DNA of 63,383 nt, counting the filler, from Octopus bimaculoides (Eukaryota), in the NCBI RefSeq assembly GCF_001194135.2. It is 6 parts of 5 records of this genome, joined end to end, with 100 filler letters (N's around TTAATTAATTAA, not from the genome) between each part and the next. Parts side by side here need not be neighbours in the genome. Positions count along the whole stretch, not along the records: positions 40,624 to 49,379 come from NC_068990.1; positions 49,480 to 58,525 come from NC_068993.1; positions 58,626 to 61,280 come from NC_068991.1; 3 more parts are not named here. One strand, given 5' to 3'. The position numbers and the translations under genes were made by a program. The notes below the pieces were generated by a model that saw only the letters and a list, made by a program, of their open reading frames with translations, searched no databases and was not told the DNA's origin. Below, piece after piece: positions 41,283-61,280 of the stretch (position 1 is its first letter; each line of letters begins with the position of its first letter).

Positions 41283-41415
41283 CGTGTGTGTGTGTGTGCG
41301 CGAGTGTGTGTATGCGTGCGTGTGTGTGTGTGTATGTGTGTGTGTATGTGTGTTTGTATTATTTGAAAAAAAATAGTAGAGATAGCTTTGGGAGTAAGCA
41401 TATAGAATGTGCAAC

Positions 41416-41462
41416 AAAACTGTCTGATGAATGGGAACATGAAACTCCGAGTACCAGTCTTT
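41416..41462 (+). ncRNA. Minimal type-I hammerhead ribozyme motif with intact catalytic core
   Basis: AAAACUGU CUGAUGA AUG GGAA CAU GAAAC U CCG A GUA CCAGUCUUU: core, stem II (3 bp + GGAA loop), stem III (ACU/AGU), GUA cleavage triplet, stem I with two mismatches. Confidence 0.65.
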
Positions 41463-42105
41463 TGTTATATTTCTGCTGTTTTTTAATAAAGTATATANNN
41501 NNNNNNNNNNNNNNNNNNNNNNNNNNNNNNNNNNNNNNNNNNNNNNNNNNNNNNNNNNNNNNNNNNNNNNNNNNNNNNNNNNNNNNNNNNNNNNNNNNNN
41601 NNNNNNNNNNNNNNNNNNNNNNNNNNNNNNNNNNNNNNNNNNNNNNNNNNNNNNNNNNNNNNNNNNNNNNNNNNNNNNNNNNNNNNNNNNNNNNNNNNNN
41701 NNNNNNNNNNNNNNNNNNNNNNNNNNNNNNNNNNNNNNNNNNNNNNNNNNNNNNNNNNNNNNNNNNNNNNNNNNNNNNNNNNNNNNNNNNNNNNNNNNNN
41801 NNNNNNNNNNNNNNNNNNNNNNNNNNNNNNNNNNNNNNNNNNNNNNNNNNNNNNNNNNNNNNNNNNNNNNNNNNNNNNNNNNNNNNNNNNNNNNNNNNNN
41901 NNNNNNNNNNNNNNNNNNNNNNNNNNNNNNNNNNNNNNNNNNNNNNNNNNNNNNNNNNNNNNNNNNNNNNNNNNNNNNNNNNNNNNNNNNNNNNNNNNNN
42001 NNNNNNNNNNNNNNNNNNNNNNNNNNNNNNNNNNNNNNNNNNNNNNNNNNNNNNNNNNNNNNNNNNNNNNNNNNNNNNNNNNNNNNNNNNNNNNNNNNNN
42101 NNNNN

Positions 42106-42920
42106 GCGTATGTATGTGTGTGTGTGTGTGTTGTGTATGTGAGTGAGTATTGTGTATGTGAGAGGTGTGTGTGCGTGTGTGCATGTATGTGTATGTGTAT
42201 GTGTGTACGTGTATGTGTGTGTATGTGTGTGTCTGTGTATGTGAGAAGTGTGTGTGTGTTTGTGTATGTGAGAGGTGTGTGTGCGTGTGTGTATGTGTAT
42301 GTGTGTGCGTGCGTATGTGTGTGAAAGCGTAAGGATGTTTGCCAGGTATGTGTGTTATTGTGTGTGTGCACTCCTGTGTGTGTGTGTGTATGTGTGTGTG
42401 TGCTCATGTGTATGCGGCTGTGTATGTACGTGTATATAGGCGTGCGCGTATATATGGGTGTGTGTGTGTGTCTTTGTGTGTATAGGGCTGTGTAAGGTGT
42501 GTATCTCTACCACTGTGCGTGTGTGTGCGTGTATATATGTCCGTTCGTCTATGGGTGTGTGTGAGGTCGCGCATGTATGTTTGTCATGTGTGTGGGCGGT
42601 ATATATGTAAGGTGTGTGAATGAGGGTATGTATGGGTTGTCAGGTGTGTGGAAGGTATGTGTGAATGGGGGTATATATGGGTTATGTGTGCAAGGGTGTG
42701 TATGCTTGGGTGTGTGTGTGTATGTTTGCGTGATTGTTAGCGTGTGTGTGTATGCGCAAGTGTGCGAGTGTATGTGCGTTTGTATAAGTGTGTGGGCGAG
42801 TCTGAGCGTGTAAGTGCATGCATATGTGTTTTGTGTGTGTAGTGTGTTGGGGGTAGGTGTGCTTACATGTGTGTGTATGGGTGCGTGTATTTTTTGTGTG
42901 TGGGTATGTGTGCGTGTAGG
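42106..42920. repeat. Long degenerate (TG)n/(TGTATG)n tract
   Basis: Direct reading. Confidence 0.9.
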
Positions 42921-43264
42921 AAGGGATGAAATAAATTGTGGAAAATTGTAGTGATTGTAATAAAAAAGTGAATAATGGATATAATGTAAAGTGGATGAGG
43001 TGGGTGGGGTAAAAAAAAAAGAATAATGAATAAAGAAAAGTGTTGCATTGTCGTAAAGGAGAGAGTGATAAGGAGGAGGGGGCTGTGTTGAGTCCGAAGG
43101 GGAAAGATGATCTAAGGTTAAAAATATAGCGCTGTTCTAAGTGGAGTCGCGAGGGAGTGGACCCATGGTGCAGGGCGAGGCCAAAAACGGAGATGTTAGA
43201 GGGGGAGTGGTTGGCCGGTGTGTGTTTGTGTGTGTGTGTAGGTATGTATGTATGTATCTATCTA

Positions 43265-43475
43265 TTTGTGTGTCTGTGTTCATCCCCCCACAATAGTTTG
43301 ACAACCGAAGTTGGTCTGTTTACGTTCCAGTAACGTACCGATTCGGCAAAAGAGACCGATAGATTAAGTAGTAGGCTTACAAAGAATAAATGTTGGGATC
43401 GATTTGTTCCACTAAAGGCGGTCCTCCAGCATGGCCGCAGTCAAATAACTGAAACAAGTAAAAGAGTAAAAGAAT
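43265..43475 (+). mobile_element. SINE family A, 3' half, CpGs retained
   Basis: TTGACAACCGAAGTTGG...TTCGGCAAAAGAGACCGATAG...CCAGCATGGCCGCAGTCAAATAACTGAAACAAGTAAAAGAGTAAAAG. Confidence 0.85.
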
Positions 43476-43880
43476 AAATGCATACATATAACTATCTGTC
43501 GATCTGTCTACCGCTATGCATCTTTCTGTCTATCTACCAACCTATTTCTATATCTCTGTCTCTCTTTTTTCTCCCCCACCCCCTATATATACATATGTTT
43601 GTGTGCGGATCAATTTTCGTGTATGAGTAATTCTCTGGTTTTTGGTTATGCTGATTCAATAAATTTTATCTTCCTTCAAAATAGGAACTTATATAGTTTC
43701 AAAACCACTCGTTTGAGCCGCTATTCTGACACACAACTACGTCCATCATTTTCATCTCGTCTCTCAAGTCCCTATTTATTTTCTTAATGAATCAAACTAA
43801 TGTTTTGAATCCATTTCAACCAGGAACATAATATCCATCCCCAGAACCGGTGGTAAAACAACCGTGCTCGTTCGTCTTAC

Positions 43881-43940
43881 CTGGTTCCACAATTTTCCCA
43901 AACACCAAGGAACAGAAATTTTGAATTCACTGGTTTTCAT
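43881..43940 (-). CDS. Speculative first coding exon (MKTSEFKISVPWCLGKLWNQ)
   Basis: ATG at 43940-43938, exactly 20 codons, consensus donor CAG|GTAAGA, phase 0. Confidence 0.2.
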
Positions 43941-44613
43941 TTAAAATTCAGCTAAGATATTATTAGATTCACAGTAAAAATTATTATATATTCTCCAAAT
44001 ACAAAATATTGATATTTCTATCTTTAATTATTGGTTTATTTATTGAGTGTCTTGATAGTGAAGTTGTTATCTTAACGGATGTTATTTTCTATTCTAGATT
44101 CCAAATCCGATATATTTTATTTTTGATAATTTTATGTAACTAAACAATATTCTCAAATTTTGTTACTATTTACATTTTGAAAAATATTTTTTTAAAATTT
44201 AAATATGATAATAAATTTTATACCAATCCAAATCATAAAATAACGAGTGAAAAATTGAAAATATTGATATGGAGAATATTTCGACAAACAGACACAATGC
44301 AAATATATTTATGAATTACCGTTTAAACTACTGAATTTTGAAACGAAATTGGTTCTATAAGAAATATTATACATAGAATTTTATACAATACTCTTTGAAT
44401 TCGGAATATTTTTATTTTCATATGTATTATTTTGTACAATATTTTTTTAAATGATGTTTTATTTACCATTTACTATTTTTGATTGATTCAGCATAGCTTT
44501 TAGCTCTGAAAACAAAAGTGTTAACGATTTGTAAATTCTTTATCGTTCATTGACATACCTGGAATTTTGTGAGACCTAAATAATTTTCAATTTTCAAGTT
44601 ACGCCCACATTAG

Positions 44614-44648
44614 TAATAATGGACTGAATTCAATTCAGTCCATTATTA
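44614..44648. repeat. Perfect 16-bp-arm palindrome
   Basis: TAATAATGGACTGAAT-TCA-ATTCAGTCCATTATTA. Confidence 0.95.
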
Positions 44649-46342
44649 TATAAGTATCATATTGATATGACAGTTATAATATTTCTAAACCAAGAAAATT
44701 GCCAATGTAAGCTGTCTGTCTTCAGTGATCACAGAATATTCTAGAGTGCATGGTATTAAGTGCTTTTGAATTGAAATGAGATATCCATATAATACCCTTT
44801 TGTAGATAATTTACCTTAAAGTGATGTTATAAACATCGATACATTTTAACAATTGATCAATTAGTGACTACTGATGTCTTAGTCGGGAAACCTAAATATG
44901 AATATCTATCCTTGGGTTTCGTCGTCTGTAGTCAGTTTAACTAAAAGCATTTGCCACAACCGAGAATTATCCATTAGCATCGTTTGAAGTCGGCTAATAC
45001 TTTTTATGTGGAATATAAACTTATTAATCATGCAACTGTATGTGTTATTATATTCAAATGGTGGAGAGAATTTGTGACTTTGCAACTATTTGATGCTGTA
45101 TTCATATATTTCTGCTAATATTTGTTAGATATGTATATTCCCCCTTCCATTACATCCTTCTACTTACATCATATGCTGCAGTCAATATGCAAAATGGCCA
45201 TCCGATAGAAAATACAGCTGATTATTATAAATCTGTTGGATAGAAATTTTGAACAAGCGCGCATAGAACAATGCGCACATAGAGTCATATATGTGTTACT
45301 TGACCTATTTTCCATTTGTTTCTCTCGTTGTTTGCGTATTGAACTGATTTGTTTTGCATTTTATGTTGTATATGCATATGTATACATACATACATGCATA
45401 CATATATATATATATATATATATANNNNNNNNNNNNNNNNNNNNNNNNNNNNNNNNNNNNNNNNNNNNNNNNNNNNNNNNNNNNNNNNNNNNNNNNNNNN
45501 NNNNNNNNNNNNNNNNTATTCAATAAGACATTCAATACTTCATTTCATTTTACCATCTATTTTCATATTATATGTTATATATTCCATATTCTATATCCCA
45601 CATTAATTTTACATGAATATAAATAAAACATAAAAAACAGACTGTTGGAACTCTTTTAAATAAAATTATATATATATAAAGTTGTAGTATATTGTCAACT
45701 TAATGTGACAATCCCAATAAGGGAATACACTACTGCCGTTTAGCCCTAGGAAGCTGGACCGCTTCCTGTCGGCCTTGACACAATTACTGTTAACTATTAT
45801 AAAATGTATATATATATATCGCATCGATTTCCAACTAAGTTTAACTTAATCTTTTTGATGCGACTTTACTCTATACTGTTTTCCCCCGTCCGTTTCTCTA
45901 ATTCCTTTCCCTTCCCTTCAACTTTTTCTATTTTTCTCTCCCTCTCCCCTCTTTCTTCTTTTCTCTCTCTTGTTGCTCACACGTGAATATCGTCCATCTT
46001 TCTTTACCTCACGTGATCATCGTTCTTTCTCTTTGTTTTCTCTTTTCAAAGAAATTATTTCTTCATCGTTCGCTAATATACCCTCGTTCTGGTCTAATGA
46101 CCCTTCATGTCTTCACTGTCTTCTTTTTGTTCCCCAAATTTGACCCTCCATAAATCCCAATTCTATTTTGGTACTTACGAGTGCAGCTATCTCCTCGTAT
46201 TTTCTTCTTGCATGGGAGAGGATGCTCAAATCGTAAAACTTTTCTAATTTTCTTGTGCGCAAACATAAAATAACCTGTTTGCTCCCTTGTATTACCCCGG
46301 CTTCATGTTTTTCTTTATTTTCGTACTACACACACACATATA

Positions 46343-46397
<55 letters not shown>

Positions 46398-46899
46398 GCA
46401 TACATGCGTATGTGTGTGTTTATGCTTGTAGATAGATGTGCATATATAAATGTACATATATAGAATTTTAGATACATTTATACATCCATGCATTTTATAA
46501 TAGTTCACATTTGAGTAAATTTTTGTCATCATTCTAACATTAAACGTAGTATTTCGTTCAATGGTCTGCTTCTATTATGCATACACAACCTCTATTATTT
46601 TTCATGTTACCTACAATTTGGATCTACATATATTTCATAACTAATTTTGTCTGTTCATAATCTCACATGCGTTCAGTTACCTCTGTTTCGCTGTTTACTT
46701 GTGTTATCAATTAGTTAGTTCGCACTATATATGTTATTCGCGGTTTTTACACTTAATTCACTGCCATACGTTGTATTCCTTGATATCCATTGATAAATTA
46801 CATGAAAAAAAACTCTAACAATACAGAACGCAGAATCCCTGTTCTTTACTATCCCTCTCACAGAAAGGGACTGTTATATTGTCACCGTTATTAACCTAA

Positions 46900-47380
46900 C
46901 TATTACAAACATGAGCAGTCTCATACAGAATTGACTGTATCACATTGTTTTCATATGATAGCTAGAATGTCCAAGGAGAGATCTGATCAGGTCACGATAC
47001 TCAATGCCTGATTGACTTTTGTTACAAATATTATCAGTGCAGCTGATACACAGAATCTTGTAGTTTATTGCTAATTTCTTCCTACCAATATTGTTATATT
47101 TGATATTTAGATAATCACTGCTTGCCCACAGGTCAAAGTATTAACCTTCTTTTTTTCAGTTCTGTTCATACCCGTTCTATAATGTTGCTGAGATTGTCCA
47201 TATTCCTATATGTAATTTTTGCTTCTAAATAATTCGAAATTTTCACATTTGCCCGTATTTTGATATTCTAAATTTCCTTCAGCTTGTCATGAGATTCTTC
47301 AGTGAAAGTCCAATCAATACCATACCAAATAACCTCCAATATATCCAATTTTGAACACAGTTCTGGTCGTTTTAATAATT
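46900..47380 (-). mobile_element. Possible highly decayed RTE-clade LINE fragment
   Basis: Minus-strand VIWYGIDWTFTEESHDKLKEI...KIS..EAKIT resembles the post-RT motif LLYG.ETWTLT...RLE..E...RR.L.ISW. Confidence 0.35.
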
Positions 47381-49379
47381 ACAGCAAAGAAAGCATTTAC
47401 AAATACAAATTACTTGTGATTACAAAATTTCTCGTCTAAACAGTTATGTTACCAGCATTAATAATCTACTGCGTCGACATTAAAAGTGACGGTATACATC
47501 CAACCAACTCCCTTCTACAAAATATTATGATAACAAAAGCATATGAAATAAATATTAAGAAAGTAGTTATTAAAGTATGTGAGCGAATATTAAAAACAGA
47601 GGAGCGCATCTTGCTATTGACAGAAAAATACATAATATTTAGTTGATAGTAGGAAAGAAATGAACGGAAACTCGAGCTGAATACCGTGTTTGAGACCAAT
47701 AATAAGATAGTATACGAGAAGATCAATACAAAATAAAGCACTTTGAGAAACATTGCGACGTCGATGGAGAATCAGTTGTTTTGGAAGATCCAACAGAAAA
47801 GCCGAATACAAGGCGATAGAAATGAAGAAACGGGGGAGGGGAGAAAATCTCACTAATATAATAAATATGGTATTGCCAGGAGAATTAACAAACAAAATCA
47901 AGTGTGGTTGCAAAATAATATTTTTAGTGATAGTAAACATCCCTATTTTGTAGTTAAAGCAATAAGGATACAAGGAATAAACTAGAACAATAGCTGCAAC
48001 ATCAAATGATTAAATATACGAGATCGAAACCAAATGAATATTAATCCCTCGCTACAAAATTAGAAAAAGGTCTCAAAATACCTACAGAAAGATAACATGA
48101 TTACAACAAATAAAGCCACGGGGTCTTTATTATCTAATAGGTGTATATACGTGTCGGCGGACATTCTAAAGATGGATGTAAATGGAGATGAAAAACATGA
48201 ATGTTGTTAGACAATAAGAAAAAAAAATAAACATAGTTATGCAATGATTATTAGCGAACAGATTTCAATAACATAACGCACTTTGAGATAATGAACACAT
48301 GAAAAAGACAGCCCTAATAACGTGGTAGTTTATTGAATACGCTGGGTTAAAATGGTGTTTATTAAGAATAAAAACAATAAAAAGCTATTATGGGGGAATC
48401 ATTTTCCCATTAGACGAACACATTTTTAAGGTGATCCTTATTGGTGCCTTCTAATTGTATTTTATCTAACAAATTGGCTAAACGAAAATGACACATATAA
48501 TGTGAGAAGAAATATGAATCATGTATTTAGTCGAGATGTCGTATTATACAGCCAGCGTAGATATCTGCTAAGAAATATAGATGTATACATTGGATTAGTA
48601 GTTTGTATAAACATATACTCAAAGAAGAAAATGATTTGTTAAAACGCAAAATATGAGAAGTGATATGGACAGTGAAATGGCATCATTAGAGTAACGAACA
48701 CCATACAAGTGCGTATGTATGTAGGAAAGTGATAAGTAAGTAAACACCAAGATTAATGAAATAATAAAAAAAGGAATATGACTAACGTAAAACATAAAAA
48801 ATACACAATGTTGATACTGGAAACTTGTTCATAGATAAAAGAAATCTTCCATGTAGTAAACTGTATGAGAAAACAAAGAAGAATTTACAAACGAACCAGA
48901 AAGTATTAAATTCGTTCACGAAACGCTGATAGTGATTACGTATGACTACATACTCATCGAGATGTGTCTTATAAAATGACAGTTGTAGTATAGGAAATGT
49001 CATAGCTTTTTTTGTGTGTATTTATTGAAAGGATGATCTGGATCGCTATTTCAGTGCCGTTGACATTGTTATCAATGCTATCCCCAAATCGCAGATCTAC
49101 ATCGGTTTTGTTTTTTTGCGGCATAATCTACTAATTATTCACAGATTCCCTGTGGTGTTACTACAATGGGAAATGGATTCAATCTCCATTTTGAAAGTGT
49201 TTAGTTACAAAAAATTAATTTCTGGATCTGCCGTTGAAAGGGAAAAGATCCCTGATCGTTTAAACAATCCTTTTTTGGGTAGTTGTTGCTTATTTTAGAG
49301 ATTATGTATGGAAAGAAAATAGGGGTAGAAGAACATCGCAAAGCTATGACACGGGGAGATATTGATAAATCGAGTATAG

Positions 49380-49479
49380 NNNNNNNNNNNNNNNNNNNNN
49401 NNNNNNNNNNNNNNNNNNNNNNNTTAATTAATTAANNNNNNNNNNNNNNNNNNNNNNNNNNNNNNNNNNNNNNNNNNNN
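49380..49479. other. Artificial scaffold spacer
   Basis: N44-TTAATTAATTAA(49424-49435)-N44. Confidence 0.95.
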
Positions 49480-50216
49480 TATATATTTAATTATATGTAT
49501 TTATTTTAACCTAATAAATAATAATTCGGATAGAATAAATGGGTTAATAGAAACCAAGGTAGCAAAGATCACAAAATAACTGGTGTAATTCCTGTTAGTG
49601 AGGCAGAAACTCCTTGATATTTTGGGTATTTGAGTAGTCCTAATCTCCAACAGTTTTTTCAAATGAATTACGTTATAACCTTCTCCAACTATAGTTATCA
49701 TACTCGGTCATAATGTCTTACGTTTAAGATGGTTCCCATACATTCCCTGAGGAGAAGTTTACATTTTTAACATCGACGATTCCTATGGATCGCATAAATT
49801 GTAATTCTTCGAAACATATGTCGGAATAAAGTATGCAGTTATAACATGCGTTTACTTCATTCCTTAAATTTTTATATATATATATATGTATATGTATTTA
49901 TATATGTGTGTGTTTGTGTATAGATGTATATGTGTGCGGGCGTGTAGGTGTTATGCGATGTTTGACCTTGTGACTGGCACAAACTGATTAGATTTTAGGA
50001 TCGATCCAGTACCAGACAAGGATTCTGGATTATGTTTCTGGTATTTTTACTTAATTTTTGAGTGCAGCTGGGTATATTTTTAGTATTCTCATTTGTGAGA
50101 GCAGTTGAGTTTATTTCAAATATTCTCATTTTAAAATTGCTGGCTAATCGCTGAGAGGATGTTGGTGTTGCTTTGGTGGAGGTTGGTACTCTCTGAGTGC
50201 TCTTATTATTATTATT

Positions 50217-50350
50217 AAATTCTGCCAAGATTGACTTTGCCTTTCATCCTTTCAAAGTTGATAAATTAAGTACCAGTGAAACACTGGTGTTGATGTAATT
50301 GACTAGTCCCCTCCCCAACAAATTTCAGGCCTTGTGCCTTTAGTAGAAAG
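50217..50350 (+). mobile_element. 5'-truncated SINE family N inserted in (ATT)n
   Basis: AAATTCTGCCAAGATTGACTTTGCCTTTCATCCTTTC...GGCCTTGTGCCTTTAGTAGAAAG, flanked by TTATTATTATT on both sides. Confidence 0.8.
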
Positions 50351-50904
50351 GGTTATTATTATTATTATGTAAGGTCAGACAACAAAGCATGTCAGTACTT
50401 TTGTTTCCCCAGTAAACTTTCACCATGTTAATTCCATATATCTTGAACCAGATCTACCTTCGGACAAACATGAAAGGTGAAATTTTTCTTTTCTGACATG
50501 AAATCAATGGTGTCAACAGGTTTTGTTGAATGGGCCTCAACTTATAAATAAATGATTGAACTCTGCCCCTGGTACTGAATACTCTTTCTACGTACATTAC
50601 TACTAACAAATATACATATTTGCTTCAGTCATTGGACTGTGGCAATGCTTGGGACTTACTTTGAAGGGTTTACTTGATCAAATCAACTCTGTAGTTATTC
50701 TGTCTCATTTTGCCAAACTGCTAAGTTACAGAGATGTAAAGAAATAACCAATGACTGTCCAGCAATGCAAGACAAACAAATACACACACATGCACACTCA
50801 TTTACACATACATGTGCACATACACATAAATAACAGGTTTGGTTTTACAGATGGAAGAAAAATCCCTATACATGCATACTTACAAGTATGTGTATAGATC
50901 ATCA

Positions 50905-51068
50905 TCATCATCATCATCATCGTTTAACGTCCGCTTTCCATGCTAGCATGGGTTGGACGATTTGACTGAGGACTGGTGCAACCGGATGGCTACACCAGGC
51001 TCCAATCTAATTTGGCAGAGTTTCTACAGCTGGATGCCCTTCCTAACGCCAACCACTCAGAGAGTGTA
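50905..51068 (-). mobile_element. Short 3'-UTR fragment of the RTE LINE with (GAT)n tail
   Basis: (CAT)nCGTTTAACGTCCGCTTTCCATGCTAGCATGGGTTGGACG..., nearly identical to 57255-57410. Confidence 0.85.
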
Positions 51069-51102
51069 GATGTGTGTATTTATTATTAGTTATGAAATTA
51101 GG

Positions 51103-51290
51103 GCAGTTGGCTGGTAGAACTGTTAGCATGCTGGGCAAAATGCTTTTCTGAGTTCAAATTCTGCTGAGGTCAACTTTGCCTGTCATCCTTTCAGATCAAT
51201 AAAATAATTACTTGCTGAGTACAGTGAGTTGATGCAATTAACTTACCTCTCTTCTGAAATTTGCTGGCCTTGTGCCAAAATTCGAATCTA
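51103..51290 (+). mobile_element. SINE family N, plus orientation
   Basis: GGCTGGTAGAACTGTTAGCATGCTGGGCAAAATGC..GAGTTCAAATTCTGCTGAGGTCAACTTTGCC...GGCCTTGTGCCAAAATT. Confidence 0.75.
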
Positions 51291-51354
51291 TTATTAGCTA
51301 TGAAACTTTATATGTTACTTTAGGTTTTTGAATCACTTTAGGTAGCTTCACACC

Positions 51355-51945
51355 TAATGATTAATATTGGGGGCAGTGTTAGTCAATTACATCAACCCCA
51401 ATGCTCAGCTGGTACTTATTTTATCGACTCCAAAAGGACAAGAGGTAAAATCAGCTCAGTTGATTTGAACTCATAACATAAAGACAGACGAAATGCTGCT
51501 AAGTTTTTCACCCAGCATTCTATTGATTCTGCCAATTTGCTACCTTCATCGTGATAATATTCCTTTGTACCATGGGCACAAGGCCTAAAGTTTTGAGTGG
51601 AGTGGCAGTTGATTACATTGACCCAGTACTCAACTGGTACCTATTTTATCAACCCCCAAAAGGATAAAAGGCAAAGTCAACCTCAGCAGGATTTGAACTC
51701 AGAATGTAGAGCTGGATGAAATGCCACTATGTTTTTGTTTAGTATGCTAATGATTCTGCCAGCTTGCCACCTTCATGATGATGATGATGATAACAACAGT
51801 GACAATAATAATAATTTCTCACATAAACACAAGGCCAGAAATTTAGTGGAAGGGAAACAATCAATTATATTAATTCCATTACTTGACTGGTAGTTTATTT
51901 TATCAACCCCAAAATGATGAGGTTAAATTTGACTAGATTTTGAAC
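51355..51945 (-). mobile_element. Three tandem SINE family N copies (about 51355-51548, 51570-51775, 51820-51945)
   Basis: Each repeats CTGGTA.TTATTTTATC.ACCCC.AAA.GA..A.AGG.AAA.T; CpG-depleted. Confidence 0.75.
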
Positions 51946-52769
51946 TTCTTTTTTTTTTTTTTGTTATAGGGAACTCATGTCCATATTATCTTCTTTCTCC
52001 TTTTCTATGACTGTAGAGTGTGATATGAGGGAAATTTAGCTGTTATTTCTAGGTAGGTAAATGGCCACGTAGAGGGTCCATCTGTGTGTGTGTGTATATG
52101 TAAGAGGGAAAGAATCAAACTGCATATATATGAGAGAGAGAGAGAGGTATAGCAAAAAATGTAGCGTGTTAGTTGGTGCAGAATAATTAAGTTTGTTCAA
52201 AGTTGTTTAAATTGTTTCATGAATCTCTTTTCTTGTCAGTGTCACTGATTAGGTTTCACTCCAGTTCTTGTGTTAGTAGTGTTGTTGGTGGTGGTGGTGG
52301 TTTAGTTTTGCTTGGGCTGACCGGTGATCAAAAGTGTTTAACCCATGACAACTTCAATTAGTTTTGGGGAATAGTGTATCTAGTGCTACGTTATTCAACA
52401 TGTTCTTCCATTTTATTTAAGCTAGCAGAGTGTGATTTGAGAGAGGTTTGTTTGTTATTTCTACCAAATCAATCAACTATCGTGAGGCTTCCTCATTGAC
52501 TCTGCATGTGGCATTTCTAATCTTGGGATGTGGTGGATCCTCCAGCCTTTGTACCTGGTTACCTTTCACCTGATTCTCTGACATCTACTTGTCATAATGA
52601 GTCTGCCACATACTGATTAATCTCAACATCCCATCTTCTCTTATGCCTATCTTCTCATCTACCTCCTATTTTAATTTCCTCTTTTTACTCTACATAGCTC
52701 ACTTTCCTCAATGTTACTGCTCTATGTTGTTGTTATTGTTATCTGATGCAACAACAACATCCAAGAACA

Positions 52770-52985
52770 ATGCCACGTCTGAAGGATGAGCACTGGAAGA
52801 CTACTACACCAACTTTTCTGGTGGCAGCAACCCATGCACTAGAGAATCCAGTGCAGTGCACCAAAGAAGACATGGGTGAAACAAACTGAGGAAGACCTGA
52901 AGTCACAGTGCCTAACCCTCAAGCATGCTAAGGCCAGAGGCATGGACTGGGAAGTATGGAATAATATCATCACCAGAGTCCATCA
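52770..52985 (+). mobile_element. Decayed RTE LINE ORF C-terminus
   Basis: PKKTWVKQTEEDLKSQCLTL..A...DWEVWNNII matches the RTE GRPKKTW...DL...DR..W motif. Confidence 0.55.
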
Positions 52986-55379
52986 TCCAGAAGCACTCAC
53001 AGCAGTGTATTGGTTGAGAGGTCGGCCGCTCCTTCCAGTTGTCAGTTAGAGATTAAAGAAGAAGATTAATCTATACCCAGTCCTTCCTTGTAATCCTTAT
53101 TCTTCATCACTTCACCCTCACAGGTTTAAACAGAAATATTTTTGTGGCAAACCATATTATCCCATTTCCTTTTTCTGTCATCCATAAATAATTGTGAATT
53201 TATAAAAAAAAAAAAATTTAAATAATAAAAATTATATATTGTGTAGTTAGTGATACTCAGGTAGAGCACATGACAAAATTCACTAATGCTGTATTTAGTT
53301 ACTTTATGGTTGAAATACTACAGGTGTAGTCTTTTCTGTCAACCTTATAAGATCAATAAAGTCACTTAAACATTAGGTTCTATTCAAGTGATTTTTCATC
53401 TCACTGAAGTTCATTGCTTTGCACCAAAGGTAGAAATTATAAATGTTATATGAACATTTTTACTTTAGTGCTGACAATGAAGTGTTATGTATAGAGACCA
53501 CACCTTATTCTTTTCTTGAAAGTGACCATATATTACCACACGTTCCCTTCGCATTGGCGCATTCTCATTGGCCTATTCTTGCAGAGTATTAGTGCACTGG
53601 ACTTATGTCTTAATGGCCTCTACTAAACAGTGATACACAAATATTAAAGTACTGGTGACTTGCTAATGAGGATTGGTTGCTAATCAATCATTAATAATGA
53701 CACTAATTATAGCACACAATATTCTTTTGATTTTCTTTAATTGGCTATTAGCAGGGTTGGAGTTTCTGTGGTAGAAGAGTGACAGTCCCTTGGTTTTAAG
53801 AGTATGTTCCTGAGAAGAAGATAAATCATATTCTGTTTCAATCTATTTTCAGTGAAATTAGCTGCTGAGGGCAACAACTAAATGAAAATATTTATTAGAA
53901 TATATTGGTCATGATACAAGATGAGAGTTTGTGTAATTACAGTGAGTTTGGGATAATGAGACATGTTTCTAAGGTAACCTTCCTGTCATCCACCACTACT
54001 AGTTTGGATACATTGATATTGAGCCAAAACTGGTCTAAGCAGCCTAATGGTGACAGGCTTATGCTCAGCGAAGTATAGTCTTCTTGTTGTCCACCACTGC
54101 TGAGTAGTATGGTAGTAGTACATTAATACTTGGCCACATTATGCTGGCATGATGTTGATGAATATGTATATTCAGTCAAGAATCTTTCTAAAAATTAAAC
54201 CAGTTTTGATAAAAATTACTGAGGCACAAGATGCCTTATTTATCTATATATATAACATCATCCTCCTCTTCATCATCATTTAACATTCGTCTTCTTTGCT
54301 AGCATGGTTTGGATGGTTTGACCAGAGCTGGTAAGGCCAGGAACCACACCATGTCAGTCATGCTCCCTCCCTTCTCCACAGTAGATAAAGGTAGTGGGGG
54401 TGGAAGCTGGAAGATAGATAAAGAGAGGGGTAATGGGGTGCCAGAATATATTCACAAAGTATGAAAAGGCAAGGGAAAATATAGATTTCGAATCAGGAGG
54501 GTAGGAAGGTATGGGAGGAGAGTGACAGGTAGGTTGATATTGAGGGAGAGTTGGCCATAGTGAGTGATGGAAAAAGGTAGGTGTGACTGATGGTAAATAT
54601 TAGTCTGCAGGATGAGGGGGGAGAGACAGAGGTGGCTCAGGAACAAGGAATTGACTTGCACCAGGACAAGAGATGTAGGAAGTGGCAGTGTCATATATCT
54701 GTAGATAGAGAGAAGGGAGATGTGCCGGGTGCAACAGTGGAGAGAGTGAGAGACTAATGAACTGTATCAGAGAAGGCCAAAATCACGTGACCTGAGATTC
54801 TCAGCGCTGGAGATGGTGGGAATTTATCTCCTTGCTAGTGATATAAACAAGCGCGTATTTTGCACTAAAATCTAATATGAAAGTTTCTCTCGTGGTATCT
54901 ACCACAGTATAATTTATTCTAACAGAACATCCATGTTTAAGTGGGGGTAAATATTACCTCATGGTATTAATGCTGCCTCTGTCGCTAAATATATATTTCA
55001 TGTGATGGAGATGGTGGTCAAAGGTATATGAAGATGGCAATAAGGAATGGGGCAACAAAGGTGGTGGAGGTATTGATGGCAAATAAGTGAGGAAGTTGAG
55101 ATGTAGCTTTGAGAAAATAGTATTGTTACTGAAAGGCACAAGAAGTGAGTGATCAGTGGAAAGTAGTATTGACTGGGATGATTATAAGGGTGAGTGCCAA
55201 TGGGTGGATAAGTATTTGCTGACACTGTTCTCAAATGATTGCGGTTGTTGAATAGTACCATTGTTAGAAGAGTAATGCGGGATGGGTGCTTGTAAAATAA
55301 GATGTAGTGTTGAGTTTGCTTGACATAGACAAACTATATGTAGAGTCTATCATGATACTTTTAGGACCTCACTTCCGCT

Positions 55380-55660
55380 ACGACAGACAGGTCTTCTGAG
55401 CATGGAAAATTACCAGTCATTTCGATCTTTTGTCATCTTCTCCATGAGGTTCAATATTTTGAGATCAGTTCTCACCACTTCATCCCATATCTTCCTGGGT
55501 CACCCTCGTCCATAAGTCTCATCCACTCTAAGTGACTGGCACTTCTTTAAGTAGCTGTCTTCATTCATATGCATTACATGACCAAATCAATGTTGTCAAC
55601 TCTCTTGTGAGCTACATCTGATGCCTCTTATACCTAATTTTTCTCTCAACACTGAGTGAG
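55380..55660 (-). mobile_element. Decayed RTE LINE 3' coding end
   Basis: LREKLGIRGIRC...FGHVMHMNEDSYLKKC...GRG*PRKIWDEVVRTDL...MTKDRNDW. Confidence 0.8.
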
Positions 55661-55865
55661 TAGGCTAAATAACTTGACAAGAAACCCTTTATTTGCTCCA
55701 GGACAAAAATAAAAATCAACTGGTGCATTGATATTATGTGAATGGGTGACATGTACAGAAATAGCCCCCCCCTCTCTCCAAACACACACATACACACACA
55801 CTAATTAATGTATTAAATTGTAATCATTCAGCTGCTTATCATTTTTATTTTTATATAATTTTCAG

Positions 55866-56070
55866 GAAAAACAAAGCATATATGAAGACACCTTGGCATG
55901 CCGTTCGTGTTGGAGACTTAGTACATTTGTCGTGCAATGAAGTCATTCCTGCTGACATTTTGTTGTTAAGGTCTAGTGATTCATCTGGCCTTTGTCACAT
56001 AGAAACAAGCAATGTTGATGGGGAAAACAACCTTAAACAAAGATTCTGTGTACAAGTCAATAAAAAACAG
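55866..56070 (+). CDS. ATP10: Internal exon of a P4-type ATPase (phospholipid flippase), class 5 / ATP10-like, actuator domain
   Basis: Acceptor TTTTCAG|G, donor CAG|GTTAGT, 205 nt (first base completes the upstream codon, ends in phase 0). [68 protein letters not shown]; the [15 protein letters not shown] and GLCHIET motifs fit the ATP10 subfamily. Confidence 0.93.
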
Positions 56071-56740
56071 GTTAGTATTGAGTGATACTTTACAACCTCA
56101 TGGCTTCTCGATTTCCAGTCTAACCTTGCAGTTGTCTGTCTTGCATAGAGATTACATGAGTTAGGTAATCCAATACCTCAAGCAGGCATGAGTAACTTAA
56201 AGTTATTGCTGATCAAGTATTTGATTTTTGTTTTCTCTTGTATAAACTAATGAATTTTATATTGTTTTATGCTTAGAAACTACTATGGTGAAATAAATTT
56301 TTATCAAGTAACACCTTTAATAATCAAATATCTACCTACTTGCTATATATTTACTTTACTCTTATCTAACTTTATTTATTAATTTGTTTTAATTTTTAAT
56401 ATTTGCCTTTACTTAATCTGAAAATAGATTACAACCATTGTAACTGGGAGAATATACCTCAGGTGAACATATGGCATACTAAGTATAAATATGTTACTAT
56501 CTCAGGTACGTAATATAGTGAGTTGAAAAGCTCCAGTTAACAGCTATTATCTGCAAAATTAATAAGCGAAAACATTGTCAGGAGTATTGGGAATTTAAAA
56601 ACGACAAAGAGATAACACCAAGAAAATAATTTCTTTGCATTTTGGGAAACAATAGATGATGTACTGCAGGAATGGAACAGTCTTTAAAGCTAGCTGGTGA
56701 AAGCAACAGGCATGTTTTAGTCATGTTTTAGACCTAAGGA

Positions 56741-56779
<39 letters not shown>

Positions 56780-57044
56780 ATTAGTATAGACAATCATGTG
56801 CAATGTGTTACCATAAAAGAAAACTATAGTTGTCATTAAATATGACTAGGGTGTTACAGCACCTATTTGCTGAGAATAAGGGTTAAAAATCTCCATTGCT
56901 GTAGTTAAAGCACACGATCGTATACATATGTACTGACAAGGGCTGTAATTGCCCCAAAACACCAGTTCAGAAATTCCCAATACTGATGAGTTGGTTTTGC
57001 ACTAAATTCATTGGCTCATCAGCATATATATATATATTTCATAA

Positions 57045-57220
57045 TCATTATCATCATTTCATGTCCATTTTCCATGCTGGCATGGGGTGGACAGTTTGAG
57101 TGGGGAGTGGCAAGCCAGGAGGCTGCACCAGGCTCTAATCTGATCTGGTAAAGTTTCTACAGGTGGATGCACTTCCTAACACCAACCACTCCGAGAGTGT
57201 AGTAGGTGCTTTTTACACGT
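57045..57220 (-). mobile_element. Older RTE 3'-UTR copy immediately adjacent to the younger one
   Basis: CATCATTTCATGTCCATTTTCCATGCTGGCATGGGGTGGAC...ACCAACCACTCCGAGAGTGTAGTAGGTGC. Confidence 0.75.
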
Positions 57221-57254
57221 CAATGTATATATATTTAAGTATATATATATAAAT

Positions 57255-58525
57255 CATCATCATCATCGTTTAACGTCCGCTTTCCATGCTAGCATGGGTT
57301 GGACGATTTGACTGAGGACTGGTGGAACCCGAAGGCTACACCAGGCTCCAATCTGATTTGGCAGAGTTTCTACAGCTGGATGCCCTTCCTAACGCCAACC
57401 ACTCCGAGAGTGTAGTAGGTACTTTTACGTGTCACCTGCACGAAGGCCAGTCAGGCGATATTGGGAACGGCCACGCTCAAAATGGTGTATTTTATGTGCC
57501 ACCCGCACAAGAGCCAGTCCAGGGGCACTGGCAACGATCTTGCTCGAAAGTCCTTACACANNNNNNNNNNNNNNNNNNNNNNNNNNNNNNNNNNNNNNNN
57601 NNNNNNNNNNNNNNNNNNNNNNNNNNNNNNNNNNNNNNNNNNNNNNNNNNNNNNNNNNNNNNNNNNNNNNNNNNNNNNNNNNNNNNNNNNNNNNNNNNNN
57701 NNNNNNNNNNNNNNNNNNNNNNNNNNNNNNNNNNNNNNNNNNNNNNNNNNNNNNNNNNNNNNNNNNNNNNNNNNNNNNNNNNNNNNNNNNNNNNNNNNNN
57801 NNNNNNNNNNNNNNNNNNNNNNNNNNNNNNNNNNNNNNNNNNNNNNNAAGTGGGCTGGCTACGCCCCTGGCAGAGGCCTTGGATTTAGGTCTCACTTGGC
57901 TTGCCGGGTCTTCTCATGCACAGCATATTTTCAAAGGTCTCGGTCAGAAGTCATCGCCTCGGTGAGGCCCAATGTTCGAAGGTCTTGCCTCACCACCTCA
58001 TCCCAGGTCTTCCTGGGCCTACTTCTTCCACAGGTTCCCTCCACTGCTAGGGTGTGGGACTTTTTCACACAGCTATCCTCGTCCATTCTCACCACATGAC
58101 CATACCAACGCAATCGTCTCTCTTGCACACCACAACTGATGCTTCTTAGGTTCAACTTTTCTCTCAAGGTACTTACACTCTGTCTAGTATGCACACTAAC
58201 ATTACACATCTATCGGAGCATACTGGCTTCATTCCTTGCGAGCCTATGTATGTCTTTGGCAGTCACAGCCCATGTTTCACTGCCATGAAGCATGGCTGTT
58301 CGTACACATGCATCATACAGTCTGCCTTTTACTCTGAGCGAGAGGACCTTTGTCACCAGCAGAGGTAAGAGCTCTCAGAACTTTGCCCAGGCTATTCTTA
58401 TTCTAGCAGCTACACTTTCAGCGCACCCTCCCCCACTACTAACTTGGTCACCTAGATATCGGAAGCTATCAACCACTTCTAGTTTTTCTCCCTGGAATGT
58501 GGCAGAAGTTGTTTTCTGCACATTT
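57255..58525 (-). mobile_element. RTE-clade LINE, 3' part (post-RT ORF, 3' UTR, (GAT)n tail), interrupted by a gap
   Basis: NVQKTTSATFQGEKLEVVDSFRYLGD...AWAKF*ELLPLL...LHGSETWAVT...MLR*MCNV...RRLRWYGHVVRM...GRSRPRKTWDEVVRQDL; two nonsense changes. Confidence 0.93.
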
Positions 58526-58625
58526 NNNNNNNNNNNNNNNNNNNNNNNNNNNNNNNNNNNNNNNNNNNNTTAATTAATTAANNNNNNNNNNNNNNNNNNN
58601 NNNNNNNNNNNNNNNNNNNNNNNNN
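58526..58625. other. Artificial scaffold spacer
   Basis: N44-TTAATTAATTAA(58570-58581)-N44. Confidence 0.95.
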
Positions 58626-59505
58626 TATATATATATATATATATATATATATTCATATGTGTATGTATATGTGCATATACTTTTACATATGTGGACATGT
58701 ATTTGTATATATATTTTTGTATATTCGTCTGCTTATCTATATGTGTGTATGTTTGTATTTATGTAGATGTACAAGTAATTTCATGTGCGCATTTTTATGT
58801 GTTCATTGTGCAAGCTAAACAATGTATCTAATTGTTTTTAGATACTTTTCGAATGCCATCATGTAACACTCTTTTCCCTTTCTCTCTCTAATTTTCTGTC
58901 TCTCTTTTTTTATTTCTTTTTCATCTTTTCCACTGTTTTCTTTATGCCCCTCCACTTACTATTTTCTGATTTTTTCCTTCTCTTTCTTTTGCCTGTAACA
59001 ACTAACTTGTATAAGCATAAGCCAGATTTTGTGCATGTGCATATGTGTGCATGCTTACATACATATGCATTTGTATATATATATTTATGTCTGACTATAT
59101 ATGTCTGAGTATGTATGTAGCTATGTACCTGCATCTGTATGTTTAGTGTATATATGTATATTATAGATGGTTTGGTATGTGTATATACTGCTAAATGTAT
59201 ATGTAATCTAGCGTGAAAAATTTTTTTAAACAGATATATCTTTTAATTTATTAATTGATTAATACTTTACAGCTAATTATTTACCCTTGGTATTCAGGCC
59301 TTGTCCTTCTTTATAAGCTATTTTTGATTTAAGGTTTTCTTCGATTTTTATTTGATTTTATACTGCAATTTGTTATTGCACACAACCGGTTATTGAAAAG
59401 ACTGTTAGTTGAAAGGACCAATGAAACAAGACCATTTTCAAATGTGTATCTATCAAACTAATTGTATATTTTTGCTTATAGCCTTATTTTTGTTCCATTC
59501 TAAAC

Positions 59506-59551
59506 AAAACTGTCCGACGAATGGGAACGTGAAGCTCTGAGTAACAGTTTT
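59506..59551 (+). ncRNA. Second copy of the 41.4-kb hammerhead family; perfect stem I but mutated core (probably inactive)
   Basis: AAAACUGU CCGACGA AUG GGAA CGU GAAGC U CUG A GUA ACAGUUUU: stem I 8/8 pairs; core changes U4>C and A15.1>G. Confidence 0.55.
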
Positions 59552-59562
59552 TGTGATATTTT

Positions 59563-59636
<74 letters not shown>

Positions 59637-60430: not shown

Positions 60431-60577
60431 GTCATAATATACAAACATTTCTCATTGCACCAGTACACTGTTTACACTGTACAATGCTTACATTCTTTGT
60501 TTTCCGTGAATTTTTCACAGGTCCAGCTAGTATATATAATTATATATATATATATATAATTCTTTTACGAGAATGAT

Positions 60578-60631
60578 ATCAACTGTGACTTTGAAGTTTC
60601 AACCAGCTAAGCCATCATCAGACAGCCTGAT
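60578..60631 (-). ncRNA. Type-I hammerhead-like motif forming one arm of a 17-bp perfect hairpin (60605-60643)
   Basis: 5'-AUCA G GCUGU CUGAUGA U GGCU UAGCU GGUU GAAAC U UCAA A GUC ACAGU UGAU-3': core, GUC triplet, 9-bp bulged stem I, weak wobble-rich stem II. Confidence 0.5.
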
Positions 60632-60759
60632 GATGGCTTAGCTAGCTGAAAATGAATCACTCTCAATACCATTGTTGTTAATAATATATTTGTACTCTAC
60701 AAGCATATGGAGTACTCCTTCATATTAATGTAAAATTGTTTTTATTGTAACTGAACATA

Positions 60760-60954: not shown

Positions 60955-61280
60955 TGCGCAGGAGAAATACCTAGCTAAGGATAAACCTCTGTACCTGGCT
61001 TTCGTTGACATGGAGAAAGCCTTTGACAGGGTCCCCCGATCCCTTATTTGGTGGTCAATGAGGAAACTTGGGATAGAAGAATGGTTAGTGAGAGCTGTGC
61101 GAGCCATGTACAGAGATGCTGCCAGTAAGGTGAGGGTTGGAAATGAGTACAGCAATGAATTCCGGGTAGAGGTAGGGGTCCACCAAGGTTCCGTCCTCAG
61201 CCCCCTCTTATTTACCATAGTCCTCCAGGCAATCACAGAGGAGTTCAAGACAGGTTGCCCCTGGGAGCTCCTCTATGCTG
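60955..61280 (+). mobile_element. RTE-clade LINE reverse-transcriptase fragment, open up to the gap
   Basis: QEKYLAKDKPLYLAFVDMEKAFDRVP...GVHQGSVLSPLLF...WELLYA, stopping just before YADD. Confidence 0.95.

What the first reader, a model, noticed from the sequence alone, without database searches (positions are those of the whole stretch)
41416..59551. Two-copy family whose consensus is a complete minimal hammerhead ribozyme
Seen: 41416-41462 and 59506-59551 are homologous and carry complementary defects. The first has an intact CUGAUGA/GAAAC core and GUA cleavage site but two stem-I mismatches. The second has a perfect 8-bp stem I (AAAACUGU/ACAGUUUU) but core mutations. Their consensus, AAAACUGU CUGAUGA AUG GGAA CAU GAAAC U CCG A GUA ACAGUUUU, meets every type-I hammerhead constraint. 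Established: minimal type-I hammerheads occur in Penelope-like retroelements and non-autonomous retrozymes of metazoans. Inference: this is a dispersed ribozyme-bearing repeat family in this genome, possibly unannotated.
Basis: partly seen in the sequence, partly recalled or inferred. Interest (0 to 1): 0.75.

Follow-up and report, generated by a model that had tools for sequence, protein, structure and literature searches.

The report
Penelope retroelement ends, C4-variant hammerhead
The two motifs are worn ends of an abundant Penelope-type jumping gene whose hammerhead-shaped RNA motif has C instead of the textbook U at one core position in most copies, so it likely cut itself only slowly, as a pair or with protein help; cutting is untested.

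Summary
Both motifs are real (40 of 47 nt identical) but lie on different contigs. They are 3' ends of a Penelope-like retroelement family: 1,116 exact pattern matches genome-wide, control 0. Long copies have a decayed RT plus C-terminal GIY-YIG ORF with Hydra-clade motifs, insert in (TA)n, and show inverted ends and a 70-nt tail. Copy 2 keeps about 940 nt of the element's 3' part; copy 1 is a 101-nt stub. Only 80 of 1,116 matches read CTGA at the core and 88 read the mirror CCAA, so the source core was CCGA (U4C) and CTGA is mostly CpG decay. Subfamilies about 34% apart at silent ORF sites differ in the motif only at two free positions, so it was conserved. It fits a minimal dimer-type hammerhead resembling published Hydra-2_aMil. 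No covariation and no RNA evidence of cutting were found. PLE hammerheads are known, and U4C is known from a viroid; I did not find a family-wide U4C PLE hammerhead in print. This scan has already noted the same reading on other DNA.

The parts
41391..41415 (-). Inverted tip of the element's 3' tail, joined to the sense fragment at a short AACAA microhomology
   Evidence: Matches the reverse complement of the tail end seen in long copies. A junction of this form is in 10 of the 30 loci (query-biased set).
41413..41491 (+). Copy 1: 5'-truncated 3' end of the element, ending at the short terminus 38 nt after the predicted cleavage site
   Evidence: 90.6% over 85 nt to the 3' end of full-length copy L161; G000 C10.
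41416..41461 (+). Copy 1 hammerhead motif: stem I 41416-23/41454-61, core 41424-30, stem II 41431-40, GAA 41441-43, palindromic stem III 41444-52, A17 at 41453. The U4 state is likely CpG decay; the pair closing stem I is broken.
41492..41497 (.). (TA)n target repeat, running into an assembly gap
58626..59505 (+). Copy 2: distal part of the roughly 1.4-kb 3' UTR; cut on the left by the stretch start (a gap in G000)
   Evidence: 82% over 983 aligned columns to L061, which carries the ORF upstream; homology thins out upstream among the 30 loci.
59397..59428 (+). Block conserved between subfamilies, containing CCAAT; possible internal promoter element (inference)
   Evidence: alignment.
59506..59551 (+). 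Copy 2 hammerhead motif: subfamily-native CCGACGA core (59514-20), perfect 8-bp stem I, rare A15.1 to G at 59534, A17 at 59543
59552..59633 (.). Shortened 3' end (homology stops at 59562), a 10-nt duplication and a (TA)n tract

Best explanation
The two motifs are decayed 3' ends of a Penelope-like retroelement family with Hydra-clade protein motifs, whose terminal repeat carries a minimal type-I hammerhead motif with an inherited C4 (CCGA) core that likely cleaved slowly, as a dimer and/or with help from the element's protein. Shown: a unit of about 3.7 kb (motif, 70-nt tail, short leader, RT + GIY-YIG ORF, 1.4-kb 3' UTR, motif); (TA)n flanks; 5' truncation; inverted 5' arms; two fixed 3' ends; C4 in most copies of the two main subfamilies. 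Inferred from the anole element: the endonuclease nicks AT-rich DNA and RT starts at one of two internal sites downstream of the motif, so it copies uncut RNA through the motif, and early template switches leave stubs like copy 1. Inferred: the palindromic stem III pairs between two motifs of a tandem transcript; cutting after GUA would trim read-through RNA and is not needed for insertion. The PLE identity alone is about 0.95; the confidence given includes residual cleavage.
For: Architecture: L061 has motifs 3,660 nt apart around an ORF 51-60% identical to an intact 713-aa relative. 11 of 20 loci fetched for the ORF start have a motif about 190-240 nt upstream of it, one of them inverted. 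Hydra motifs: DKT in 11 of 18 copies covering it and DKG in none; RWK in 9 of 17; CxxC and CxH flanks. Ends: 68 short, 52 with tail, 27 other or gapped, of 147 copies, as for the two RT start sites in PMC11167929. Core: 80 CTGA versus 88 CCAA of 1,116 (p 0.59). Of 12 neighbouring pairs with a TG arm, 10 have a CG or CA partner. Selection: two subfamily majorities (32 and 9 copies) differ at N7 and the loop-3 centre only, against 0.52 column identity upstream; four-fold sites are 0.53 identical between and 0.75/0.84 within groups. The double-hammerhead fold lies within 1 kcal/mol of the dimer minimum for two of three family-typical copies. Stem I core and stem III match Hydra-2_aMil. U4C lowers but does not abolish function in a viroid (PMC3088659 passage).
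Against: Cleavage is untested. U4C, an A-U closing pair and a 3-bp stem II are all weakening. With C4 the model puts core C3-G5 in a competing hairpin (P 0.55, against 0.04-0.20 for three U4 copies). The sequence after the motif is as conserved as the motif (0.91), so selection for protein recognition, or exchange of 3' ends between subfamilies, could explain the conservation. No compensatory change: the one nominal signal (p 0.026) is CpG-type and in a query-biased sample. Monomer folds are no better than shuffles, and Rfam finds no hammerhead. RNA-seq shows no read-end pile-up at the site. The linker's second Cys reads Phe in 5 copies and Cys in 3, the unit is longer than most Hydra elements, and no tree with published Hydra proteins was built.
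Confidence: 0.55

Rival explanations
1. Same PLE family, but the C4 motif is catalytically dead. It is kept as a structural or protein-binding part of the RT start region, or carried along with it.
For: Hammerhead mutants did not affect insertion of the anole PLE in vitro. All inserted 3' ends lie downstream of the cut site, so the template was uncut. The downstream 35 nt are equally conserved. C4 favours a hairpin that masks the core.
Against: The subfamily differences fall on the positions a hammerhead leaves free (N7, the loop-3 centre, wobble changes in distal stem I), which a plain binding site need not respect. A second family in the window has both U4 and C4-derived cores, which suggests tolerance.
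Confidence: 0.33
2. One reading: the source element had a canonical CUGAUGA hammerhead and the copies are complementary decays of it. A weaker form: a small U4 sub-lineage gave rise to copy 1.
For: Copy 1 reads CTGATGA. Among loop-C copies CTGA outnumbers CCAA 26 to 15 (hand counts; p 0.12). 2 of 12 pairs are TG/TG, and one more was seen by eye (L123). All 26 published Hydra rows have a ctga core, so the remote ancestor probably did.
Against: 7% CTGA genome-wide, balanced by 8% CCAA. Both main subfamily majorities are CCGA. Copy 1 also shows CpG-type changes on both arms of stem II.
Confidence: 0.07
3. A non-autonomous retrozyme or SINE-like family with a circular RNA stage, only mobilised by PLEs.
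For: Many copies are ORF-less stubs of about 110-250 nt with recurring junctions.
Against: The same end is continuous with a 1.4-kb UTR and an ORF. Copies show a 5' truncation gradient. Neighbouring motifs are inverted arms or flank an ORF, not short tandem units.
Confidence: 0.05

Closest known systems
Hydra clade of C-terminal-endonuclease Penelope-like elements (Craig et al. 2021, PMC8557442; seen: passages, section 11, supplement parts 1, 2, 52), esp. Hydra-2_aMil and Hydra-2_aJap
   Same: RWK and DKT motifs, CxxC/CxH flanks, C-terminal GIY-YIG, (TA)n targets, hammerhead near the 3' end. Hydra-2_aMil has the same stem-I core (ctgt/acag) and the same actc-N-gagt-a stem III and site (compared by eye).
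   Different: Core CCGA, where all 26 listed Hydra rows have ctga (their descriptors required CUGA). Stem II is 3 bp closed by A-U. The unit is about 3.7 kb against mostly under 3 kb. The published octopus family Hydra-1_oBim has a different hammerhead in every stem and is 2,507 bp, so it is not this family.
Minimal type-I hammerheads in pLTRs of metazoan PLEs (Cervera and de la Pena 2014, PMC4209133; seen: parts 1-2 of 4)
   Same: Position in the terminal repeat, tiny palindromic helix III, predicted dimer, thousands of solo copies, opposite-strand pairs, low expected activity.
   Different: In the parts read, the only core change reported is U3-A8; there is no C4. The usual G10.1-C11.1 pair is A-U here.
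Anole Poseidon PLE PAc (Frangieh et al. 2024, PMC11167929; seen: parts 1-2 of 4)
   Same: Two alternative 3' ends downstream of the hammerhead, AT-rich targets, insertion from uncut RNA.
   Different: Other clade. Its ORF starts inside the hammerhead; here it starts about 200 nt after. The tail is about 70 nt here against 30-40 bp quoted there.
Natural U4C hammerhead of a viroid (second-hand, passage in Perreault et al. 2011, PMC3088659; the original, PMC147498, is not held)
   Same: Same core substitution.
   Different: There a variant of an efficient ribozyme; here the majority state of a genomic family with over 1,100 copies and a weak scaffold.

Membership tests
EN+ Penelope-like elements | Single ORF with RT and GIY-YIG endonuclease | tested here: met
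   [quoted passage not shown] Pfam gives only a weak RVT_1 match (E 0.004) and none for GIY-YIG; that label rests on the motif pattern.
EN+ Penelope-like elements | Partial tandem (pLTR), inverted 5'-truncated arm, optional tail | tested here: met
Hydra clade | RWK motif and DKG changed to DKT | tested here: met
   RWK in 9 of 17 and DKT in 11 of 18 decayed copies covering the site; DKG in none.
Hydra clade | CxCX5C linker | tested here: inconclusive
   Intact in L160, L161, L064; second Cys reads Phe in L061, L063, L125, L156, L162.
Hydra clade | No internal CCHH; CxxC and CxH flanking the conserved E and N | tested here: met
   CxLC and CRH motifs in most copies; no Cys pair inside the GIY-YIG core of L063 or L066.
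Hydra clade | Insertion in (TA)n | tested here: met
Hydra clade | RT phylogeny groups with Hydra references | not tested
   The published reference proteins were not available as stored sequences; no tree was built.
Canonical type-I hammerhead | Core C3 U4 G5 A6 N7 G8 A9 | tested here: not met
   U4 in 80 of 1,116 matches; the majority is C4.
Canonical type-I hammerhead | G12 A13 A14, A15.1-U16.1, NUH site, stems I-III able to pair | tested here: met
   Each of 11 pairs is standard or wobble in 128-146 of 147 copies (copies were selected by likeness). Stem III forms fully only between two molecules.
Canonical type-I hammerhead | Compensatory changes in stems | tested here: inconclusive
   None between subfamily majorities; only a CpG-type, bias-prone signal among copies.
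Canonical type-I hammerhead | Self-cleavage after H17 | not testable with these tools
   Standard RNA-seq shows no end pile-up, but such libraries do not map cleavage ends.
Non-LTR retrozymes | Short non-coding units in tandem, each with a hammerhead, no ORF | tested here: not met
   ORF present in long copies; neighbouring motifs are inverted or flank the ORF.

The most novel reading that the evidence does not exclude
C4 is a selected brake. It creates a hairpin that hides the catalytic core so that the RT can copy uncut RNA, and the element's protein or a partner motif releases it later. Such CCGA hammerheads would be a large class of protein-gated ribozymes that CUGANGA descriptors and Rfam miss in animal genomes.
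Probability: 0.13. Interest if true: 0.62.

Novelty: new member of a known kind. Interest (0 to 1): 0.3.

Why it matters
Hammerheads in PLE terminal repeats are established, so the element itself is one more family of a described clade. The useful point is the core letter. A family that reached over 1,100 copies with C4, while keeping the rest of the motif, is a natural test of an open question: do PLEs need their ribozyme to cut (PMC8557442 calls the function unclear; PMC11167929 finds it dispensable for insertion in vitro)? It also shows two traps. A two-copy consensus in methylated DNA can restore a textbook core by CpG decay. And descriptor searches for CUGANGA would see only about 7% of this family.

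Tried and rejected
Rfam on the window (best 150 of 387 rows shown, all microsatellite-type) and on each copy: no hammerhead match. Monomer folding: z +0.97, +0.28, +0.79, uninformative for a dimer-type motif. Pfam on five intact relatives: only chance-level hits. My first guess of a Neptune-clade element was dropped after reading the Hydra definition. Identity with Hydra-1_oBim was rejected by eye from its listed hammerhead and length. A U4 source lineage for copy 1 was tested and neither shown nor excluded. ATG/CAT as a compensatory change was rejected. Sequencing-run search: no RNA holder listed. Three raw RNA runs added by species label were laid at about 6% depth: 698, 744 and 468 reads on the 3' end, first mates on both strands about equally, no end pile-up, and 25-36 reads per run continuing from the tail into the ORF leader; 281, 211 and 231 mostly diverged reads on one ORF copy. 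This fits passenger transcription and says nothing on cleavage. Clusters S3-S5 are inverted-arm artefacts and were left out. Literature: searches showed no paper on a C4-core PLE hammerhead. Lunse et al. on PLE hammerhead variants (PMC5785218) and Ambros and Flores (PMC147498) are not held, and figures and the PMC4209133 supplement were not seen; any of these could already report it.
Full report
Observation. They match at 40 of 47 nt, and the next-best place in the window scores 28. They lie in separate stretches of the pack, on contigs C10 and C11 of G000. Rfam reports no hammerhead at either. I did not determine the host; earlier AI notes on this genome call it probably an octopus.

Family size and anatomy. 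A 34-nt degenerate pattern has 1,116 exact matches in G000 and its reversed control has none; this is a lower bound. Homology upstream of copy 2 thins out with distance among the 30 loci, as expected for 5' truncation. Long copies show the element. In L061 two motifs lie 3,660 nt apart on one strand around an ORF that aligns at 51-60% identity, in five pieces, to an intact 713-aa protein. Of 20 loci fetched for the ORF start, 11 show a motif about 190-240 nt upstream of it (one inverted), and 5 show one after a long 3' UTR. Every ORF copy seen has stops or frameshifts. Copies end either about 38 nt after the predicted cut site (68 of 147) or about 70 nt further on (52 of 147), with 27 other or gapped, and they sit in (TA)n. 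Many have an inverted arm. Copy 2 is the last 937 nt of such an element, 82% identical to L061. Copy 1 is a 79-nt 3' end fused to the inverted tip of the tail.

Clade. Craig et al. define the Hydra clade by RWK, DKT, a CxCX5C linker, CxxC and CxH flanks, no CCHH, and (TA)n targets. The copies show DKT in 11 of 18 and DKG in none, RWK in 9 of 17, and the flanking motifs. The linker is intact in three copies and has Phe for the second Cys in five. The unit is longer than most Hydra elements, and I built no tree. Their hammerhead table lists Hydra-2_aMil with the same stem-I core and stem III; the octopus family Hydra-1_oBim differs in every stem, so this is another family.

The core is CCGA. Genome-wide, 80 matches read CTGA and 88 read CCAA, the two products of deamination at one CpG (p 0.59 for equality). 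Of the first 100 rows listed, 80 read CCGA, 8 CTGA, 11 CCAA and 1 CCCA (hand count). Among 23 neighbouring pairs with both 5' sides intact, 12 include a TG arm; only 2 of these are TG/TG, with one more seen by eye. So U4 usually arose after insertion. Loop-C copies, the class of copy 1, lean towards CTGA (26 against 15, p 0.12), so a small U4 source is not excluded. Stem II is ACG/CGT around GGAA in most copies; copy 1's ATG/CAT is the double decay product. Copy 2's CCGACGA is native, and its rare core change is A15.1 to G (2 of 131).

Was the motif conserved? The majorities of two subfamilies (32 and 9 copies with full upstream sequence) differ by two substitutions in the motif, at N7 and the centre of loop 3, against 0.52 column identity in the 260 nt upstream. 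Four-fold degenerate ORF sites are 0.527 identical between these groups and 0.750 and 0.840 within them. Correcting for decay, I estimate about 34% divergence between the source elements; two or fewer changes in 39 nt would then have p 2e-5, but 0.055 at 15% divergence. The two changes hit positions that hammerheads leave free (established). Against this, the next 35 nt are 0.91 identical too, exchange of 3' ends was not tested, and there is no compensatory change; the one nominal signal is CpG-type in a sample enriched for copy 1's letters.

Fold. Single copies fold no better than shuffles. As dimers, two family-typical copies give the double hammerhead at -22.8 and -22.9 kcal/mol against minima of -23.8 and -23.9; a third, with a damaged stem I, gives -13.4 against -19.4; copy 1 gives -9.8 and copy 2 -19.9. 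With C4, C3-G5 pair with the start of stem II with probability 0.55, against 0.04, 0.04 and 0.20 in three natural U4 copies. These are model values without tertiary contacts.

Mechanism. Shown here: anatomy, targets, two 3' ends downstream of the motif, C4 majority. From the anole element: the endonuclease cuts AT-rich DNA, RT starts at two internal sites that define the tail, the hammerhead cuts only with protein present, and its mutants still insert. By analogy the template here was uncut RNA, which explains why the stubs carry a whole motif. Minimal PLE hammerheads cut weakly as dimers, and U4C lowers activity but left a viroid infectious (second-hand). I infer slow, dimer- or protein-assisted cleavage that trims read-through transcripts (0.55), with a dead structural relic as the main rival (0.33). 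The RNA runs show reads on both strands and no pile-up at the site, which does not decide it.

Prior knowledge. PLE hammerheads and the Hydra clade are published. Searches showed no C4-core PLE family, but the most relevant paper (Lunse et al.) is not held, and the descriptors of Craig et al. required CUGA. After I had recorded my reading, the scan's notes showed the same reading on other genomes; these are unchecked AI notes, not independent support. Papers seen: PMC4209133 parts 1-2 of 4; PMC8557442 passages, section 11, supplement parts 1, 2 and 52 of 59; PMC11167929 parts 1-2 of 4; passages of PMC3088659, PMC6765202 and PMC4105743; bioRxiv 2026.07.22.740005 part 1 of 5.

Verdict. A real, decayed, high-copy PLE family with Hydra-clade motifs; a new member of a known kind with a variant core. 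Interest 0.3.

Noticed in passing
window 31765-31976, minus strand: A young element of about 210 nt between (TA)n tracts with a canonical CTGATGA core at 31915, a G-C-closed stem II and almost no stem III. 40 of 40 scored hits are 96-100% identical and full length (1,210 candidates); all 20 loci examined are single copies without a tandem unit. A better candidate for an active non-autonomous ribozyme element than the finding itself. No Rfam hammerhead match.
   Followed up: partly
window 60561-60743: A second, older fold-back element with two head-to-head hammerhead motifs and a perfectly palindromic stem III. 40 of 40 scored hits span most of it at 75-80% apart from itself (1,728 candidates). 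Most of 25 aligned copies read CTGA, but CCGA, CCAA and CTAA occur, so C4 sources may exist there too. No ORF was sought.
   Followed up: partly
L125:2403-2475 (tail) and window 60693-60715: The tails of both families contain a hairpin beginning TACTCTAC; the family-1 tail folds into two hairpins (z -1.7). Possible RT or endonuclease recognition signal.
   Followed up: partly
window 59397-59428: A CCAAT-containing block about 85 nt upstream of the motif is kept between subfamilies whose UTRs have otherwise diverged.
   Followed up: no
window 60986-61279, plus strand: Open 98-aa piece of a non-LTR reverse transcriptase (Pfam RVT_1, E 1e-11), unrelated to this family.
   Followed up: partly
L066:4941-5888, minus strand: An RT fragment 48% identical to P0001 lies in opposite orientation just upstream of a family copy; it may be another Hydra-type family or an inverted arm.
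   Followed up: no
L067:4258-4614, plus strand: About 4 kb upstream of copy 2 in the genome, outside the window, a 119-aa frame with a DKG motif, probably a relic of another PLE clade.
   Followed up: no
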